Shown here: in pieces, positions 5,411 to 54,922 of the stretch
How the letters are laid out: each line of letters opens with the position of its first letter
How positions within the stretch are numbered: the stretch's first letter is position 1
DNA from: the human T2T-CHM13v2.0 reference genome, Homo sapiens
Length of the DNA stretch: 64,000 nt
NCBI RefSeq assembly: GCF_009914755.1
Contig: NC_060945.1
Reading direction: 5' to 3' (one strand)
Notes under the pieces: model-generated
What the model was told of the DNA's origin: nothing
Databases searched by the model: none
Seen by the model: only the letters and a program-made list of their open reading frames with translations
Program-made: the position numbers and the translations under genes

Positions 5411-6299
5411 TCATGGAAAAATTGCAGAACTCAATTTCCAGTGTGCACATTTATTTGCATGCCTAGGAGCTTTCTGACCCTGTGTTGAGCTGCCTAACCA
5501 GCTTCCTGATTGACCTCCTGATATTTCTGCAAATGTGGACTAAGAGGCCAGGAGTCCTCAGGGCCCAGGTGACTCAGGTTATTCAGTAATTATGTTTGGA
5601 CTAGCAGGCCTCTACTTAATTTGGGATGCAAAAGGGGACTTCTCTTCCTAATTGCTAAAATAGCTTTTCAAGGTTCACCTCTCATCGTGGTAAGAGTCTC
5701 ATTTCCTGAGACTCTTATTTCTTTCCATGACTTATGTTATATTCTGGAGAGAGTGGATTCACATGGAAAAGCTGGCTCTGTGCTGGTTTTCCAGGGGTCA
5801 GCCCTCTTGTGAGTGACAAGTCTGCCTATTTACATGATGTACATTGTGTCCCACTACTGGTAATAGAAGCTCAGCAGCTGATTGACTGTTAGGTTATTTT
5901 CAAAGCTCAATATTCACAATAATCTAACAGACACCCACACAACCACAAAGACAGACAAGGCTCTCATAACCTGCAAAAGACAAGGTGCACATTTCTTCTT
6001 TCCATCCCAGCAACAAATTGCCAACCCAGCCAGCACTTAAGTTGGGGTAAAAATTAATTAAAAGAAGAATCTACCAATGTAGATAAAAGAACAAAAAAGC
6101 TATTGCAGCTGTCTTCTCCATAACAGAGGCCTGTGATTTGAATTTTAATGTTTCAATCTACTTTCTGCTCTTGTGTTTATTTTATTATTTATTTTTTGTC
6201 ACTATCTCTTATTTGTAGATACAAATTTTTCACATTTAAAAGCTATTTTAAATATAATCTTTAAAAGGAGAAACATTATTTTTTTTAATTGCACAAAAT

Positions 6300-10803: not shown

Positions 10804-13800
10804 GGCCCCTGGCCCCTCCACAACCTGCGCTAGAAGAGCTGGGCCCTGGCTCTGGGCACCATGCAGCCTCTAAGGTGGGGCTGAGCGCCAGTTCCTGCCC
10901 TCCTGCAGCTGGGGACCAATACCCTGACTTAGGCGCTGTGGAGGCTTCTGGCCCAAGGGTCCGCACTGCTGGTGGCACTGGCAGGGTCAGAGTTTGCCAC
11001 AGCTGCTGCTGCGCGCCTTGTGCAGGTTACCACTGCAGCTGAACCTACAGCAGAAGCAGGCAGGGCTGGTCCCAGACAGCCTGGGGGTCTCTAAGTGCAG
11101 GGCCCTTTCACCCTAGAGTCAGCTCTTTCTTGCCGGCACCCATAGCGGGGTGTGCAGGCGCTGGGTACAGGGCAGCAGCCAGGAAATGGCTGAGCGGCCT
11201 GTTCCCGCCCTCCTGCAGCTGGGGCCTGACCACCTGAATTAGCCGCTGGGCGAGGTCTGGCCCTGGGATCCGCCTGGCTGGTGTAGGAGCACGGTCTGGG
11301 GTTGCCTCCAAGGCTGCTGCGCGCGCCATGTGCAGGCAAGGGTTTCCCAGACAGCCTCAGGGTCATGGAGTGGACCACTGTCCCAGCCTGGAGTCCGCTC
11401 TTCCTTTGCCTGCTCCCAGAGTTCCGGGTCGCGGGCACTGGGAACTGTGCCGCCAAGGGGACTGGGCCGAGGGCAAAGGTTTCTGCCCTGCTGCAGCTGC
11501 GGGGCTGACTGCCTGAATTAGGCGCTGAGGCGGCGTTGTCCCTGGTGTCCTGGCTCTTGGTGGTGCAGGCAAAGTGCCCGGTTGCTCTGCTGCTGCGGCG
11601 CCGTTGTACAGGTGGCAGCTGTAGCTGAGTTCTCAGTAGGGGCCGGCAGGGTTGGTCCTAGAAAGCGTGAGGATCGCCGAGTGCACTGCCCTCCCAGCCT
11701 AGGGTCCACTCTTCCTTGGCCCGAGCCCAGAGCTCGGGGTTTCAGGCGCTGGGCCCTGTGCAGCTGCCCAGAATAGGCTGAGCGGCAGGTTCCCGCCCTG
11801 GCAAGGGATCCAGCAGTGGAATCCTCACTGCTGTTGGCTGCGGGCAAGGTCAGCGGGGTTTCCATCGCTGCTGGTGGGAGCCACCTGGCGGTGGTAGCTG
11901 CAAGTGAGCGCGTGGCAGAGACTGGCAGGGCTGGTCCCAGACACCCTGAGGGTCTCTGGGTGCATCGCCCTACCACCCTAGGGTCTGCTCTTCCTTAGCC
12001 TGCTCCCAGGACGCGGTGTACGAGGGCTAGACTCTGAGCAGCCTCCAGGATGGGGCTGAGCAGCGGATTCCTGCCCTGCTGCAGCTACAGTCTGAATTAG
12101 GCGCCACCGCAGTATCTGGCCCTGGGGTACGTGCTACTGGGTGGCATGGACAGAGATGGGGGCTGCCACAGCTGCTATGGGGCTGAGCAGCCGATTCTCG
12201 CCCTGCTGCAGCGGGCGACCGCTGCAATCCCCAGCGCTATGGGACCGACCACCTGACTTAGATGCCTTGGAGGCATCCGGTCCTGGGGTCTTGCTGCTGG
12301 TGTCTGCGGGCAGGGTCACGGCTGCCACTACTACTGCTGTGCGCCATGGGCAGGTGCCAGCTGCAGCTGAGTCCGAGGCAGATGCTGTCAGGGCTGGTCT
12401 GAGGTTGCCTAAGGGTGGCTGAGTGCACCACGCTTCCACCCCAGGGTCCGTTATTCCTAGGCCGGCTCCCAGATTGCAGGGTTGTGGGCGTTGGACACTG
12501 TGCAGCCATGAGGATCTGGTTGGGTGCAGATTCCCGCCCTCCTGCAGCTGAGAAGCCAATCTCATAACAGGCGCTGCAGTGACCTCTGGCTCTGCGGTCC
12601 GCGCTGCTGCTGGAGCTGGCAGAGAACAGAGCTGCCACCGCTGCTGCTTCCAGGAGTGTGCAGCTGGCAGCTGCAGCTGAGCCCGTGGCGGAGGCTGGAA
12701 GGCCTTATTCCAGAAGCCTTGAGGGTCCCCGAATGCACCGCCCTCCCACCCTAAGGTCCAGTCTTCCTTGCCCGCGCCCAGAGAGTTGGATTGCAGGCGC
12801 TGAGCACAGTGCAGGTGCTGGGATGGGGCTAAGCTGAAAGTTTCCGCCCTCTGGCTGCTGCGGGGCCGACAGCCTGAGTTATGCGCCGCGGCGGCTTTTG
12901 GTCATGGGATCCGCACTGCCGGTGGCTTGCACAGGGTCGGGGGCTGCCACAGCTGCTATAGTTCACCGTGTGCACGTGGCAGCCGCCCCTGAGCCCACCG
13001 CTGAGGCTGCAGGGCTGGTCCGGTCCCAGACGGCCTGAGGGCCATTTGCCCGCGCCCAGATCCGGGTGGCTGCGCTGGGCACTGTGCAGCCTCCCGGAAT
13101 CCGCTGAAGGGCACGTTCCCGCTCTCCTACAGCTGTGGGCCGACTGCCTGATTTTGGCCACTAGGTGGAGTCTGGCTCTAGGGTTTCGAGGCCGCTGGTG
13201 TTGGTGGGCGGAGTCCGGGTTTGCCACCGCTGCGCTCCATGAGCAGGTAGCAGCTGCAGCGGAGCTTTAGACCGAGGCTGGCAGGGCTGGCCCCAGACGG
13301 CCTGAGGGTCAGGGAGTGCAGGGTCCTCCCACCCTAGGTCCGCTCTTCCTTTGCCCTTACCCAGAGCGGGTTGTGCGGGCTCTGGGCTCTGTGCCGGCGC
13401 TGGGCTCTGTGCAGCCGCCGAGATGGGGCTGAGCAGCGGATTTCCTCCCTGCTGCAGCTGGAGGACGATTACCTGCACTAGCCGCTGAGGCGGCATCTGG
13501 CCCTGGGTTACTGCAGCTGGTGACGCGGGCAGGGTCAGGGTTGGTTGCAGGTGGCAGCTGCTGCTAAACCCATTGCGAGCCTCAGGGTCACCAAGTTCAC
13601 CGTCCTTTCATCATAGTATCTGATCTTTGGCCCGCGCCCAGAGTGCGGACTGGCCTGCGCTGGGGACTGCATAGCTTCTGGGGGCCGGTCAGCGCCAGTT
13701 TCACGTCCTCCTGCAGCTGCGTGGCCTAAGGTCTTAGGCGCCGCGGCGCTATCTGGCCCTGCTGTCGACGCTGCTGGTGGTGGGGACAGGGTCAAGGGTT

Positions 13801-50271: not shown

Positions 50272-51380
50272 AATTCAACACTTATTTTTAGAACCTACTG
50301 TGTGCCAGGCACTTTAAAAAATGTTTTTAATACAAGGATGAGCAAAATTGGTGAAATCTCTGCCCCTGTGGAGTGTCCAGTCTAATGAAAAAAACAGCAA
50401 GTTAAGAAGCAAATGCATAATATAGTGTTAGGTTGTGATAAGGGCTATGTGGAAAAAATAAAGTGTGGTTGAATATAGAATGACACAATGTGTGTGTGTA
50501 GAGAGTATTGTTGGAGAGAAGGCTCAGAAGTGAAAGAAATGATGAAAGAACCACACCAATATCTGATGCAAGAGGGAATAGCCAATCAGAAGCCTTAAGG
50601 CTGCAAGAGCTGGGAGGTTTAATAAACAGCAAGAAAAATAGTGCCAAAGTGATATAGAGTGGCAGAGGGAAAAGTAGTAAGTAACAGATACAAAAGATAA
50701 GCAGGGCCTAGATTCCCTGTGGCCTGGGAGATAATGGTGAAGACTTATGGATTTGTTTCATGTGGTGAAAATCTGTTGTAGAATTTGAGCAGGAAATGAT
50801 GTGATCTGATCTACGTTTTTGAAAGAATCATTCTGGCTCCTGTTTGGAAAATAGCTGGGATTGGGTTGGAAAAAAAAAAAGTAATGGAAATAGAGGGAAC
50901 AATCAGAAATGACTGCTGTAATTTAGAAGAGAGATAACGGAAACATGGCCTCGGGTAGTATCTACAAAAAAGGTGAGAACTCGATTTAGGATGTGTTGTG
51001 AAGGTAAAGTTGACAGGCTTTGCCAATAGAATGGATTTGGAGTGTGTAAAACATAGGGAATCCAGGCTGATTTTTAAATTGAGGGCCAGAGCCACTGGAT
51101 AGTTAGAGATGATATTTCCACTAAGACTGGAAGTGAGGGGGAGCATCATATTTGGGGCAGGGAGGAATCAAAGTTTCTGTTTTGAGTGGTTTAATTCAGA
51201 ATGCTTCTCAGATATCCCAGAGGAGGTGTTAATTTGGCAGTCAAGTATCTGAATCTGGACACAGAGGGGAGGTCAAGGCTGGATGTGTTAGTTTAGAAAT
51301 AACCAGCATTTGGGTAAGATTAAAACCTATGATATAGGATAAAATTATCTAGAGAGAGCATTTACTCAGAGAACTCTCAA
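50272..51380 (-). mobile_element. L2 LINE, ~1.1 kb 3' portion
   Basis: attcaacacttatttttagaacctactgtgtgccaggcac...gaaagaatcattctggctcctg...gaaggtaaagttgacaggctttgc. Confidence 0.85.
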
Positions 51381-51759
51381 TATTCAGGAACACAAGCCTA
51401 TCCAGACTGGCTCAGGATAAATAAAGTTTTATGTAGAAGACAAATAGTTGCCCATGTAGAACCAAAGAAAAGGCGCAAATAAATACAAGCCCATCATCTC
51501 TCTTGGTTACATAGAATACATGAGGCAGTAAAGGATAAGGATTAAACTTTCAAGATGTGAATGTCTTGAATTCAGATGTCAAACAGAACTGAATTTGAAT
51601 CTGTTTCCCACCAGCCAAATGAGTGTTTGATGAAGATGACCATGATGATGATAATGACTTACATTTCTTAATGTTTCCCGTATGTATGTAGGACTTTTAA
51701 ACTTGTTCCAGTACAGGTAGGGAAAGAAAATTCACATTAGTTTATTCACACACATATAG

Positions 51760-51884
51760 AGAGAGTTGGGGTATCTGCGTGCTGCCCAGGCTGGGCATTT
51801 GAGCCCATTCCTGGGCTCAAATAATCCTCCTGCCTAGGTCTCCCAAAGTGCTGGGATTACAGGCATGATCCACTGTGCCCTGCC
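51760..51884 (-). mobile_element. FLAM / Alu left monomer
   Basis: cctgggctcaaataatcctcctgcct...ctcccaaagtgctgggattacaggcatg. Confidence 0.8.
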
Positions 51885-52094
51885 CTAAATATATTTTATA
51901 TATAGCAGGTAATAAAACAAGAACATGAGGATTACAATTTTTAATCACAGAGGGAAAGATTTTGTGAGAATAACATAATTTCATATTCAAACAGCAAGTC
52001 TTTAGCTAATTCTTTGATTAAAGTATTGACAAAACCATTTTGAAAAATGTTTCTGAGGCACTTTTACCTGTGAAGTTTTGAAAGATCTACACTT

Positions 52095-52679
52095 TTTTTT
52101 TTTTTAATGTTTTTTTTTTTTATTATACTCTTAAGTTTTAGGGAACATGTGCACATTGTGCAGGTTAGTTACATATGTATACATGTGCCATGCTGGTGCG
52201 CTGCACCCACTAACATGTCATCTAGCATTAGGTATATCTCCCAATGCTATCCCTCCCCCCTCCCCCGACCCCACCACAGTCCCCAGAGTGTGATATTCCC
52301 CTTCCTGTGTCCATGTGATCTCATTGTTCAATTCCCACCTATGAGTGAGAATATGCGGTGTTTGGTTTTTTGTTCTTGCGATAGTTTACTGAGAATGATG
52401 GTTTCCAATTTCATCCATGTCCCTACAAAGGACATGAACTCATCATCATTTTTTATGGCTGCATAGTATTCCATGGTGTATATGTGCCACATTTTCTTAA
52501 TCCAGTCTATCATTGTTGGACATTTGGGTTGGTTCCAAGTCTTTGCTATTGTGAATAGTGCCACAATAAACATACGTGTGCATGTGTCTTTATAGCAGCA
52601 TGATTTATAGTCCTTTGGGTATATACCCAGTAATGGGATGGCTGGGTCAAATGGTATTTCTAGTTCTAGATCCCTGAGG

Positions 52680-52680
<1 letters not shown>
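52095..52680 (-). mobile_element. Young L1 3' end (L1HS pre-Ta-like), inverted part of a composite insertion
   Basis: Near-consensus L1HS 3' UTR and ORF2 C-terminus; diagnostic site reads ATGAC-ATG-TTAGTGGG (ACG with CpG decay) and ...AAGAGTATAATAA. Confidence 0.9.
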
Positions 52681-52712
<32 letters not shown>

Positions 52713-53398
52713 TAGGCACAGAAGTGAATTTGCCTTGTAAACTTGACTTCTGAGCTGCATAAATATTTTACGTAATTACAAAACAAAAAATAAAAAAGCA
52801 ATTTTTACAAATCTTGTGTGTTCAGTTAGGAGCACACCTTCACAGAGAGGAACTCTTCCCAATGGCTTTAAGGCACAATTGTTGTTGTTTTTAAAAATAT
52901 CTTAAATAAATTTTTATTTTTATAGATTTAGAGGGTACAAGTGCAGGATTGTTACATGGATAAATTGTGTGGTAGTGAAATCTGGGGCTTTTAGAAGACA
53001 CAGTAATTTGACTCTCCATCCCTAGTGCACAAAAAAGAATTAAACAATTTCCAGTATTCAGGATCCAAATGAAGTTCATACAGTGATTGTTTGAAATAAC
53101 TTTTAAGTCTCTTATAATCCATATTTCCACATTTCTTTCTTTCTTTTTTTAATTTATACATTTTTCTGCTTATTGAAGAAAACTAGTTATCCTGTAGTTT
53201 TTCCTACAGTCTGAATTTTGCTGTTGCATCACCATAATATAGAAATAAAAATGATGTATGATATTTATGAGCTAATTGGAAATGTGAACATAGACTGGTT
53301 ATTTAATGATATTAAGAAATTATTGTTTATTTTGTCAGGTGAGACTATACTGTGGTCTTATTAAAATGAGATATATACTGAAGAAAAAAAAAAAAAAA
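52681..53398 (+). other. 3'-transduced segment: poly(A), ~675 bp non-L1HS DNA, ATTAAA, poly(A)
   Basis: Lies inside TSD gaaagatctacactt (52080-52094 and 53399-53413); ATTAAA at 53360, A15 at 53384-53398. Confidence 0.85.
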
Positions 53399-54010
53399 GA
53401 AAGATCTACACTTGGTAAATTTAGCATCTTTTAATTTTTCTTCCCCTACAGTAATTACAAAATTCTGGAGGGGGAAAAATGTAATATTCTCCAGGAGTGA
53501 GAATGGAAGACAATACTTTGAGCTATACTAGACATAATCATTTTTGTACATGCACTTTCAGAAGAGGTCCCATGCTGTGGACTGAACTTGAAACGAAATA
53601 CAGTAATTGTCTCTGGCATTAAATACCCATAGGCATATTTTTACAAGAACATACATTAGTATATGCCTGCTAGATACATAACAATGTGTGAGTATATTTT
53701 AAGAGAATCTTAATGTGACTAACAAATAGCAATCAAATTGTTCACAATTTCAGGCTCAAAATTGAAAAGAAGAGGAATTTTTTTTACTAAAAAATTATAT
53801 ACACAGAAAGAGTGATTCAAAGTTGAGCATTAATGCAAATTAGGATGAAATACGAGAAGTAATCCTTGCCAACCATCTGCCTAGCTTCTCCCCACTTCTA
53901 CCCTTCCCTAGCAGGGGTGAGCTATTTTACCTCCTGGGGAGATGGGAAATGACAGAGAGTGAGAGGCTAATCAGAAGTTTCAAGCACCCCCTTCTCTAAA
54001 AGCAGGAGGC

Positions 54011-54922
54011 TGTTGGTGAGTACTGGAATTTTGTTTTTCTAATTTGGTCTTGAGGTTTCTCTCTGGAAAATGGCTGTGAATTCTAACCCTGCACTGAAAG
54101 GGCTCCAGTATTTGGGTCATGGATGTCTACAGTGACTTCTTTATCCTAGTGGATGGCCTAATGCCTAAGTGTTGCCTAGTGCCTAAGCGTCCAACCCATG
54201 ACCAGGTGTCCCACTCACAGGAAACATGCTTATACCAGCAGGCACCCTCGTGGCTCTTGTCTGACCTATGTCCAGTTTATTTCTACCAAGATATCCATTG
54301 TCTAGGAGAGCTTTCCCTTGGAAAGAAACTAGGTTCAGGTGTGTCAGTCAGGTGAGATGCAGAGGAGGCGATGCAACAAAAACCACACAATAATAGGAGG
54401 AGTTTATTACTTACAGATTAGAGAAAAGGGCAGCACTCCTTGCAGAGCTGATGGGAAAGCAGAGCCATTCCAGATATACATGCTCTACCAGAACCACAAA
54501 GTGCAGAGCAAAAGAGAGAGTGAGGGACCTGTGTGCTAAAGCTTTTATTGGAGTCCAGGGTATTATTAGGTGGGTTTCCATGGGAGTTCTAATTTGCGAG
54601 TTTAAAGCAAGCTGTTCCAAGTCCTATGTGGCCACGCTGTTACTGAGAGGTTGTCGCTGCAGCATATCTGTACAGTCTATGGGGGATGGAGGAGTCAGTG
54701 GGGTAAGCCAATAGGTGGTACCTAACTGTCCCTTAGGAAAGGTGGTCAACAGCAGACAATTGTATAAGGGAGATATCTGGATTGACCATATTAAGGAACT
54801 GGGATGAAATAGAGAACTGGAAATTGTGCCAAGGGTGACTAAACCATGTTTCTTGTATGAGAAAGTCCAACTTATATTCAAAATGAATGCCAAGGCAATA
54901 TAAAATTACAGGAATTCACTAC
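54011..54922 (-). mobile_element. ERVL-class LTR (MER54-like)
   Basis: tgttggtgag...ctaatttggtcttgagg...ggatggcctaatgcctaagtg...catgaccaggtgtccc; reverse AATAAA at ~54403; family from recall. Confidence 0.6.

What the first reader, a model, noticed from the sequence alone, without database searches (positions are those of the whole stretch)
52080..53413. Young L1 insertion combining a 3' transduction with twin-priming inversion at the source L1's own poly(A)
Seen: a perfect 15 bp direct repeat gaaagatctacactt at 52080-52094 and 53399-53413 encloses, in order, a T-run, ~560 bp of L1 3' end on the minus strand, a 28 nt A-run on the plus strand, ~675 bp of unrelated DNA, ATTAAA (53360) and A15. 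The left flank tttt|gaaa reads 5'-TTTC/AA on the bottom strand. Established: this fits L1 endonuclease preference, and twin priming and 3' transduction are both known L1 behaviours. Inference: a read-through RNA (L1-polyA-flank-polyA) was primed once at its terminal poly(A) and again at the internal L1 poly(A) by the TSD's terminal TT. The whole L1 part therefore faces away from its transduction, and the internal poly(A) appears on both sides of the inverted piece. A repeat masker would show only a short minus-strand L1 without a TSD.
Basis: partly seen in the sequence, partly recalled or inferred. Interest (0 to 1): 0.8.

Follow-up and report, generated by a model that had tools for sequence, protein, structure and literature searches.

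The report
Inverted L1 with chr8-derived 3' tag
This is one young human L1 retrotransposon insertion that carried along a 680-base piece of chromosome 8 and had its L1 part flipped during integration; it is a tidy example of known L1 behaviour rather than a new kind of element.

Summary
A perfect 15-nt repeat (52080-52094, 53399-53413) encloses T11-AATG-T12, 558 nt of minus-strand L1 3' end, A28, about 680 nt of non-L1 DNA, ATTAAA and an A-run. It is a true target-site duplication: 3 of 3 paralogous copies (chr13, chr18, chr2) lack the insert, and chr13 shows exactly one copy of the 15-mer.

The non-L1 part has one parent in the assembly, chr8:74,859,960-74,860,640, with 2 differences in 681 nt. 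The copy ends 20 nt after the parent's ATTAAA, so it came through a polyadenylated RNA. The L1 piece encodes ORF2p residues 1161-1275. It belongs to a pre-Ta-like lineage whose 3' end reads A-run, (C)ATT, A-run.

A read-through L1 RNA was primed at its terminal poly(A) and again, from the top strand, at the L1's own internal poly(A).

The main gap is that the chr8 parent has no L1 upstream in this haploid assembly. The source element is therefore inferred, either polymorphic or lost. Second priming inside a poly(A) tail is already in print (Meyer et al. 2010). Interest is modest.

The parts
52080..52094 (.). Left copy of the 15-nt target-site duplication, GAAAGATCTACACTT. Its terminal TT is the presumed second (top-strand) primer.
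   Evidence: There is a single copy at the empty chr13 site.
52095..52121 (-). Inverted L1 tail. T11 is the complement of poly(A). AATG-T12 is the complement of the lineage-encoded A12-CATT 3' end.
   Evidence: All 20 of the 20 closest L1 copies end A-run, (C)ATT, A-run.
52122..52679 (-). 558 nt of L1 3' end on the minus strand. It holds ORF2 codons for residues 1161-1275 (52331-52678), the stop codon (52328-52330) and the 3' UTR. It is pre-Ta-like, with ATG where 16 of the 20 closest copies have ACG.
   Evidence: PDB sequence search, E 2.1e-74 to LINE-1 ORF2p residues 1161-1275. It is 98.4-98.9% identical to 20 dispersed copies. The triplet definition comes from PMC12350158 methods.
52680..52707 (+). 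A28, read as the part of the source L1's internal poly(A) copied by the first cDNA. The first 2 A could be L1 sequence and the last 3 A could be chr8 sequence.
   Evidence: L1 copies continue ...GGCGATT 5' of CCTCAGGG. chr8 reads T AAA GAGAATAGG.
52708..53385 (+). Non-L1 DNA copied from chr8:74,859,963-74,860,640 (the 3' transduction). Five AATAAA/ATTAAA hexamers lie inside it and the last one was used.
   Evidence: One search gives one other full-length match. There are 2 differences in 681 nt, at 52834 and 52932.
53360..53365 (+). ATTAAA polyadenylation signal, also present in the chr8 parent. Cleavage falls 20 nt downstream.
53386..53398 (+). Terminal poly(A) not templated by chr8 (13 A; the run is 15 A from 53384). 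This is the site of first-strand priming.
   Evidence: chr8 continues tttatgg after GAAGAA.
53399..53413 (.). Right copy of the target-site duplication.

Best explanation
This is a single L1 integration event in a human ancestor. It postdates the chr21/chr13/chr18 duplication.

**Inferred source RNA.** A pre-Ta-type L1 once sat in + orientation at chr8:~74,859,960, directly before AAAGAGAATAGG. It was transcribed past its own weak poly(A) signal. The transcript was cleaved 20 nt after an ATTAAA about 680 nt downstream. The resulting RNA read: L1, A12CATT, A(n), chr8 flank, poly(A).

**First-strand priming.** L1 endonuclease nicked the chr21 bottom strand at 5'-TTTC/AAAA. The terminal poly(A) was primed there. 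The first cDNA copied the chr8 flank and about 28 nt of the internal poly(A).

**Second-strand priming.** The top strand was cut 15 nt downstream. Its ...CACTT-3' end annealed to the same internal poly(A). From there it primed a second cDNA through A11, CATT, A12 and 558 nt of L1.

**Joining.** The two cDNA ends were joined at a 2-nt AA/TT overlap.

**Result.** The structure is duplication, inverted L1 tail and body, A28, chr8 tag, poly(A), duplication.

**What is shown.** One duplication pair, an empty ancestral site, an RNA-mediated copy from chr8, the L1 identity and orientation, and the junction sequences.

**What is inferred.** That an L1 ever sat at the chr8 site, and that both cDNAs used the same RNA molecule.
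For: 1. One pair of 15-nt duplications encloses everything, and 3 of 3 paralogs lack the insert.
2. The non-L1 part has one parent locus in 3.1 Gb. There are 2 differences in 681 nt. It ends at a poly(A) added 20 nt after the parent's ATTAAA.
3. A pure A28 sits exactly where chr8 homology begins. It is absent from chr8, which has AAA there. This is what an L1 tail followed by its flank would give.
4. The chr8 boundary T|AAAG matches 4 of 5 positions of the endonuclease motif. Only 3.5% of positions in the chr8 16 kb match that well.
5. The endonuclease-like nick is on the strand that primed the chr8-tagged poly(A). That RNA was therefore the primary template, as L1 cis-preference would predict (established knowledge, recalled).
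6. The L1 piece is a complete 3' end with its lineage-specific tail abutting the duplication's TT.
7. Ages agree. The triplet context is pre-Ta-like. The chr8 tag has diverged by 0.3%.
8. Twin priming with the second primer inside a poly(A) tail is documented (PMC2837659).
Against: - The chr8 parent locus in this assembly has no young L1 upstream of the copied stretch. It shows only old L1-like remains, plus a 92%-identical minus-strand L1 fragment 1.3 kb away.
- No second offspring carrying the chr8 tag exists in this genome.
- I found no record of a polymorphic L1 at that site in the few supplements I could open. Those were not the right catalogues, so this is weak.
- The terminal poly(A) is short (13-15 nt) for a young insertion.
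- The subfamily call rests on one triplet whose position I placed by sequence context, not by a numbered reference.
Confidence: 0.72

Rival explanations
1. Dual priming with two RNAs. The bottom strand copied an L1 read-through RNA from chr8 and stopped inside its internal poly(A). The top strand was primed on the poly(A) tail of a second, ordinary L1 mRNA of the same lineage.
For: Meyer et al. proposed this and could not separate it from twin priming. The inverted tail (A12CATT plus 11 A) looks like any tail of this lineage. It therefore need not come from the chr8 RNA.
Against: A single RNA explains why the first cDNA stops inside the internal poly(A): the second primer occupies it. Nothing in the sequence requires two RNAs. 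This rival still needs the unseen chr8 source L1.
Confidence: 0.12
2. There was never a source L1 at chr8. An independent polyadenylated chr8 transcript was mobilised in trans. The reverse transcriptase then jumped from its 5' end onto the poly(A) tail of an L1 RNA, giving A28. The same L1 RNA was primed from the top strand.
For: The chr8 locus lacks an L1 in this assembly. Template switching and antisense RNA/L1 chimeras attributed to twin priming are described (PMC13174262).
Against: It needs three uncommon steps instead of two common ones. The homology starts at an endonuclease-like T|AAAG, which this model does not predict. The primary, endonuclease-nicked strand used the chr8-tagged RNA, which goes against cis-preference. 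I have no evidence for a transcript start at that position, and I could not test for one.
Confidence: 0.1
3. Two nested, independent insertions. Either a retrocopy of the chr8 RNA and a later minus-strand L1 landed at its 5' junction, or the events came in the reverse order.
For: L1 is abundant, and A- or T-rich tails attract new insertions (noted for interrupted poly(A)s).
Against: There is only one duplication pair. No second repeat flanks 52095-52679 or 52680-53398. The top-strand site CACTT/GG is a poor endonuclease site. A28 at the 5' end of a retrocopy would be unexplained. All three paralogs lack both parts.
Confidence: 0.03

Closest known systems
Poly(T)-headed L1 insertions: twin priming with both primings inside the poly(A) tail, or 'dual priming' (Meyer, Srikanta, Conlin, Batzer 2010, Mob DNA 1:7; PMC2837659; outline and the whole Results section read)
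   Same: - The whole L1 body is inverted relative to the poly(A) that was primed first.
- The endonuclease-like site lies at the poly(A) end.
- In 11 of their 39 loci, tail sequence lies on both sides of the L1.
- The top-strand primer anneals in a poly(A).
- Duplications of 7-20 nt flank the insert.
   Different: - Here the poly(A) used for second priming is internal to the RNA. About 680 nt of traceable chr8 sequence and a second poly(A) lie between it and the first priming site.
- Their 22 loci with extra non-L1 sequence could not be traced to a parent, and they state that none was a transduction.
- This chr21 locus is not in their Table 2.
Classical twin priming (Ostertag and Kazazian 2001). 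The original paper is not held. The mechanism is taken from passages of PMC2837659 and bioRxiv 10.1101/2024.08.27.596794.
   Same: - Two cDNAs are primed from the two nicked strands.
- The inverted 5' part lies upstream in the RNA of the direct 3' part.
- There is short complementarity at the internal primer and at the cDNA-cDNA junction.
- One duplication pair flanks the insert.
   Different: The inversion breakpoint normally lies inside the L1 body (median about 5.15 kb), so part of the L1 stays in direct orientation. Here it lies in the poly(A) after the L1, so no L1 sequence is in direct orientation.
Partnered L1 3' transduction (as described in passages of PMC13009371, and bioRxiv 10.1101/2024.08.27.596794)
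   Same: - Unique downstream DNA was copied together with L1 through a read-through RNA that ended at a downstream poly(A) signal.
- A single parent locus can be identified by the tag.
   Different: - The cognate L1 faces away from its tag.
- The parent locus carries no L1 in this assembly, so the progenitor is inferred.
Antisense mRNA/L1 chimeras attributed to twin priming (Law and Burns 2026, PMC13174262; passages read)
   Same: Non-L1 RNA-derived sequence and L1 lie in opposite orientation inside one duplication pair.
   Different: In those chimeras the L1 occupies the primary (poly(A), endonuclease-site) end and the foreign RNA the other end. Here the foreign sequence holds the primary end and is preceded by an A28.

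Membership tests
Endonuclease-dependent L1 (TPRT) insertion | Target-site duplication flanking the whole insert | tested here: met
   Perfect 15-nt repeat, present only twice in the window.
Endonuclease-dependent L1 (TPRT) insertion | Empty pre-insertion site with one copy of the duplicated sequence | tested here: met
   chr13 is an exact match, chr2 has one mismatch, and chr18 is empty with a 41-nt deletion beside the site. That is 3 of 3 paralogs. Alleles and ape orthologs could not be tested.
Endonuclease-dependent L1 (TPRT) insertion | TTTT/A-like first-strand nick site next to the 3' poly(A) | tested here: met
   The bottom strand reads TTTC/A, a 4-of-5 match. The background rate is 3.6% of window positions.
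Endonuclease-dependent L1 (TPRT) insertion | L1 sequence reaching the element's 3' end, with tail | tested here: met
   ORF2p residues 1161-1275. It is 98.4-98.9% identical to 20 L1 copies and shares their tail pattern.
L1 3' transduction | Unique non-L1 sequence between the L1 poly(A) and a second, terminal poly(A) | tested here: met
   The order is A28, then 678-681 nt, then A13-15. The L1 itself is inverted.
L1 3' transduction | Single parent locus whose sequence ends at a poly(A) signal where the copy acquires its tail | tested here: met
   The parent is chr8:74,859,960-74,860,640, with 2 differences in 681 nt. ATTAAA lies 20 nt before the tail.
L1 3' transduction | Progenitor L1 directly upstream of the parent sequence, in the same orientation | tested here: inconclusive
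   It is absent in the one haploid assembly available. Other alleles cannot be seen here. The boundary is endonuclease-like, T|AAAG. Membership therefore remains inferred.
Twin priming | Inverted upstream segment and direct downstream segment of one RNA inside one duplication pair | tested here: met
   The order in the RNA holds only if the RNA was the read-through transcript.
Twin priming | Complementarity between the top-strand 3' end and the internal priming site, and microhomology at the cDNA junction | tested here: met
   The duplication ends in TT and runs into the T-run. There is a 2-nt AA overlap at the L1/A28 junction.
Twin priming | Both cDNAs copied from the same RNA molecule | not testable with these tools
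   It cannot be told from dual priming by sequence, as Meyer et al. also state.
Meyer et al. poly(T)-headed L1 loci | Homopolymer lying directly between the duplication and the L1 5' end (with L1 viewed in sense) | tested here: not met
   The A28/T28 abuts the L1 5' end. It is separated from the duplication by the chr8 tag and a second poly(A). This locus works like their Fig. 1d variant but does not fit their search definition.
L1 pre-Ta subfamily | ACG at positions 5,929-5,931 (definition quoted in PMC12350158 methods) | tested here: inconclusive
   The piece has ATG. Of its 20 closest copies, 16 have ACG and 4 have ATG at the aligned place. ATG is one CpG transition from ACG. I placed the position by context, not by a numbered reference.

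The most novel reading that the evidence does not exclude
Internal L1 poly(A) tracts in read-through RNAs may be preferred landing sites for the second (top-strand) primer. This would produce a recurrent, under-annotated class. Repeat maskers would report such loci as an antisense L1 stub without duplications beside an apparently orphan retrocopy. Some of the 22 'filler'-bearing loci of Meyer et al. 2010 may belong to this class. Such loci would also record extinct or rare source L1s, like the one inferred at chr8:74.86 Mb.
Probability: 0.25. Interest if true: 0.45.

Novelty: new member of a known kind. Interest (0 to 1): 0.3.

Why it matters
The locus shows that the poly(A) between an L1 and its transduced flank can serve as the second priming site. 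The L1 then ends up facing away from its own tag.

Annotation pipelines that expect L1, poly(A), tag and poly(A) in one orientation would split such events. They would miss the duplication, the transduction link and the source element.

The locus also points to a pre-Ta-type source L1 at chr8:~74.86 Mb that the complete reference haplotype does not carry. That is directly checkable in pangenome data.

Beyond this, the locus is an ordinary intronic or intergenic insertion in pericentromeric 21q. No functional effect is evident.

Tried and rejected
- **Pfam.** A scan of the L1 ORF2 C-terminal translation gave 0 families. The PDB sequence search settled identity instead.
- **Other offspring of the chr8 tag.** Searches with the first 178 nt and the last 388 nt found only chr21 and chr8 at full length. 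That was 4 of 4 and 40 of 46 candidates scored.
- **Siblings sharing the piece's private changes.**
  - The CAT-triplet variant occurs at 2 other places, which are 95.5-95.9% copies and so older L1s.
  - The +A/A-to-T 39-mer occurs nowhere else exactly and at 3 places with 1 mismatch.
  - None is a close relative.
- **The 92%-identical minus-strand L1 fragment 1.3 kb upstream of the chr8 parent.** It is too diverged to be the origin of a 98-99% young piece.
- **Hunt for a recorded polymorphic L1 at the chr8 site.**
  - The supplements of PMC12350158 held as text contain only review text for 8q21.11.
  - The PMC9311842 archive was unreadable.
  - The PMC4862182 tables had no source near my rough hg19/hg38 estimate.
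  - The 8q21.11 source L1 discussed in PMC12350158 produces only 5' transductions there. I have no evidence that it is this site.
- **Alternatives rejected.** Nested insertion and DNA-level rearrangement are rejected for the reasons given under rivals.
- **Ostertag and Kazazian 2001.** The paper is not held. What I say of it comes from citing papers and from recall.

Full report
**Observation.**
- GAAAGATCTACACTT lies at 52080-52094 and again at 53399-53413.
- Between the two copies, in order, lie:
  - T11, AATG, T12 (52095-52121)
  - 558 nt that are the reverse complement of an L1 3' end (52122-52679)
  - 28 A (52680-52707)
  - non-L1 DNA up to 53385
  - ATTAAA at 53360
  - an A-run up to 53398
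- The 15-mer occurs twice on the + strand and never on the - strand of the 64-kb window.
- The repeat finder reports it as the only long direct repeat framing the region.

**The repeat is a target-site duplication from one insertion event.** The window's own genome could be searched (window = contig 21:12,028,001-12,092,000). A query of 50900-54600 found three paralogous places whose two flank matches abut:
- chr13:17,852,931-17,855,308, flanks 97.5% and 98.3% identical
- chr18:14,580,931-14,583,265, flanks 97.2% and 97.9% identical
- chr2:138,330,354-138,332,808, flanks 87-93% identical (flank identities)

In chr13 the junction reads ...gtgaagtttt GAAAGATCTACACTT ggtaaattt... with one copy of the 15-mer and nothing inserted. 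chr2 is the same with one mismatch. chr18 has no insert and a 41-nt deletion immediately right of the site. So 3 of 3 paralogs are empty. The insertion is younger than a duplication whose copies differ by 2-3%.

**The non-L1 part has one parent, and it was copied through RNA.**
- A search with 52708-53383 listed 40 scored matches out of 732 first-look candidates. Two were full-length: the window itself and chr8:74,859,963-74,860,638. The other 38 covered only query positions 176-295, which is a dispersed old repeat.
- Searches with the first 178 nt and the last 388 nt found no further copy.
- Over 681 aligned nt (52705-53385) the two copies differ at 2 positions, 52834 and 52932.
- At the 3' end, chr8 continues ...ATTAAAATGAGATATATACTGAAGAA tttatgg, whereas chr21 has A's after GAAGAA. 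That is a poly(A) tail added 20 nt after a genomic ATTAAA.
- Four earlier AATAAA/ATTAAA hexamers in the stretch were bypassed.
- At the 5' end, chr8 reads ...agtagggt AAA GAGAATAGG, whereas chr21 has ...ccctgagg A28 GAGAATAGG.

The direction of transfer is therefore chr8 to chr21. The template RNA carried a long A-tract immediately 5' of the chr8 sequence, and chr8 itself does not encode that tract in this assembly.

**The L1 piece.**
- Its minus-strand translation matches residues 1161-1275 of human LINE-1 ORF2p in solved structures (E 2.1e-74). There is one extra Asp from a CAT triplet duplication. Pfam gave no hit.
- The 20 best genomic copies that I fetched are 98.4-98.9% identical.
- At the triplet that PMC12350158 uses to define subfamilies (ACG = pre-Ta, ACA = Ta; methods passage), 16 of the 20 copies have ACG and 4 have ATG. 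The piece has ATG, one CpG transition from ACG. I located the triplet by sequence context, so the pre-Ta call is probable rather than proven.
- All 20 copies end in A-run, (C)ATT, A-run, and 7 of the 20 have CATT. The window's T12 and AATG are therefore the complement of an inherited 3' extension of this lineage. Only the 11 T next to the duplication (13 counting the duplication's own TT) represent tail proper.
- The piece's private changes are the extra CAT, one extra A and one A-to-T. Elsewhere they occur only singly, in older or unrelated L1s. No sibling was found.

**Mechanism.**
- The bottom strand of the empty site reads 5'-...GATCTTTC/AAAACTTC. That is 4 of 5 matches to TTTT/A, which 3.6% of window positions reach.
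- The nick lies next to the terminal poly(A) of the chr8-derived sequence. The top-strand break, CACTT/GG, is not endonuclease-like.
- First-strand synthesis therefore began on the poly(A) that follows the chr8 tag. It ran through the tag and ended 25-28 nt into an A-tract.
- The top strand, ending ...CACTT-3', continues without a break into T11, AATG, T12 and the L1 in reverse complement. This is what extension of that end on an L1 poly(A) would give.
- L1 copies read ...GGCGATT just 5' of CCTCAGGG. The first two A of A28 could therefore be L1 sequence. That gives a 2-nt overlap where the two cDNA ends were joined.
- This is the geometry of twin priming as summarised in PMC2837659 and bioRxiv 10.1101/2024.08.27.596794. 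The difference is that the internal primer landed in the poly(A) that separates an L1 from its read-through flank.
- The two cDNAs are about 720 nt and 585 nt long.

**The gap.** In this assembly the chr8 parent has no young L1 upstream. The 10 kb before it contain old L1-like ORF2 remains in + orientation and a 92%-identical minus-strand L1 fragment 1.3 kb away. Neither can be the origin of a 98-99% piece. The source L1 is therefore inferred to be an allele that this haplotype lacks, or one lost from the population.

In its favour:
- The A28 sits exactly at the homology boundary.
- The boundary T|AAAG is endonuclease-like. This has a 3.5% background per position, with four possible positions because of the AAA.
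- The chr8-tagged RNA was the primary template.
- Read-through transduction is common: about 25% of insertions according to PMC13009371, and 35% of somatic events in the bioRxiv cohort.

Against it:
- No L1 is seen at the site.
- There is no second offspring carrying the tag.
- The few supplements I could open record nothing there. None of them was a suitable catalogue.

**Rivals.**
- **Dual priming** (two RNAs; Meyer et al.). It cannot be excluded and would still need the chr8 read-through RNA.
- **Trans-mobilised chr8 transcript with a template jump onto an L1 poly(A).** This fits the absence of a source L1 and the antisense chimeras of PMC13174262. It needs more rare steps and does not predict the endonuclease-like boundary.
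- **Nested independent insertions.** These are rejected because there is one duplication pair, no second pair, a poor top-strand site, and all three paralogs lack both parts.

**Comparison with what is known.** The closest description is Meyer et al. 2010. They report 39 primate loci where the whole L1 is inverted relative to the first-primed poly(A). For 11 of them they propose that a long poly(A) tail hosted both primings. They state that none of their loci carried transduced sequence, and that the parents of their extra sequences could not be found. This chr21 locus is not in their table.

Partnered transductions with twin priming are mentioned in the 2024 bioRxiv paper. Conformations combining twin priming and transductions are catalogued in a figure of PMC12350158 that I could not see. 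In four literature searches and the passages read, I did not find the specific case of second priming at the internal poly(A) of a read-through RNA. I cannot say it is absent from print.

**Verdict.** The source L1 is still unseen. The locus is a new, well-resolved member of known L1 behaviours (3' transduction plus a poly(A)-primed twin-priming variant), not a new kind of system. Confidence in the stated mechanism is 0.72. Interest is 0.3.

Noticed in passing
Loci L031-L050 (20 L1 3' ends across the genome); window 52095-52121: All 20 closest L1 copies share a tail of the form A11-16, (C)ATT, A-run (CATT in 7, TT without C in 13). This looks like an inherited few-base extension beyond the canonical L1 end that marks a sub-lineage with the ACG/ATG triplet.
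   Followed up: partly
L014:1420-1600 (chr18:~14,582,000): The chr18 paralog has a 41-nt deletion that starts 13 nt into the sequence equivalent to the target-site duplication. This is the same spot where chr21 took the L1 insertion.
   Followed up: no
window 52883-53002: Inside the chr8-derived stretch, about 100 nt form a dispersed repeat. There are 38 partial genomic hits at 80-88% identity. From recall, it resembles an old L1 3' end in antisense. NCBI's mask does not cover it.
   Followed up: no
L019:8150-8632 (chr8:74,858,150-74,858,632): An older minus-strand L1 3' fragment lies 1.3 kb upstream of the chr8 parent stretch, in the same relative orientation as in chr21. It is 92% identical to the chr21 piece and is judged coincidental.
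   Followed up: yes
L055 (chrX:~106,049,000): An L1 3' end whose tail is followed by about 20 nt of other sequence and a second A16 run. This may be a very short 3' transduction.
   Followed up: no
window 10897-13041: A cluster of G+C-rich exact direct repeats of 15-21 nt at many spacings. This suggests a degenerate tandem or minisatellite-like region.
   Followed up: no
window 52080-53413: According to the hub's gene table, the insert lies inside the span of predicted lncRNA LOC112268283 (39806..70694, +), past its listed exons. The chr8 tag brings five sense-strand AATAAA/ATTAAA hexamers into that transcript's orientation.
   Followed up: no
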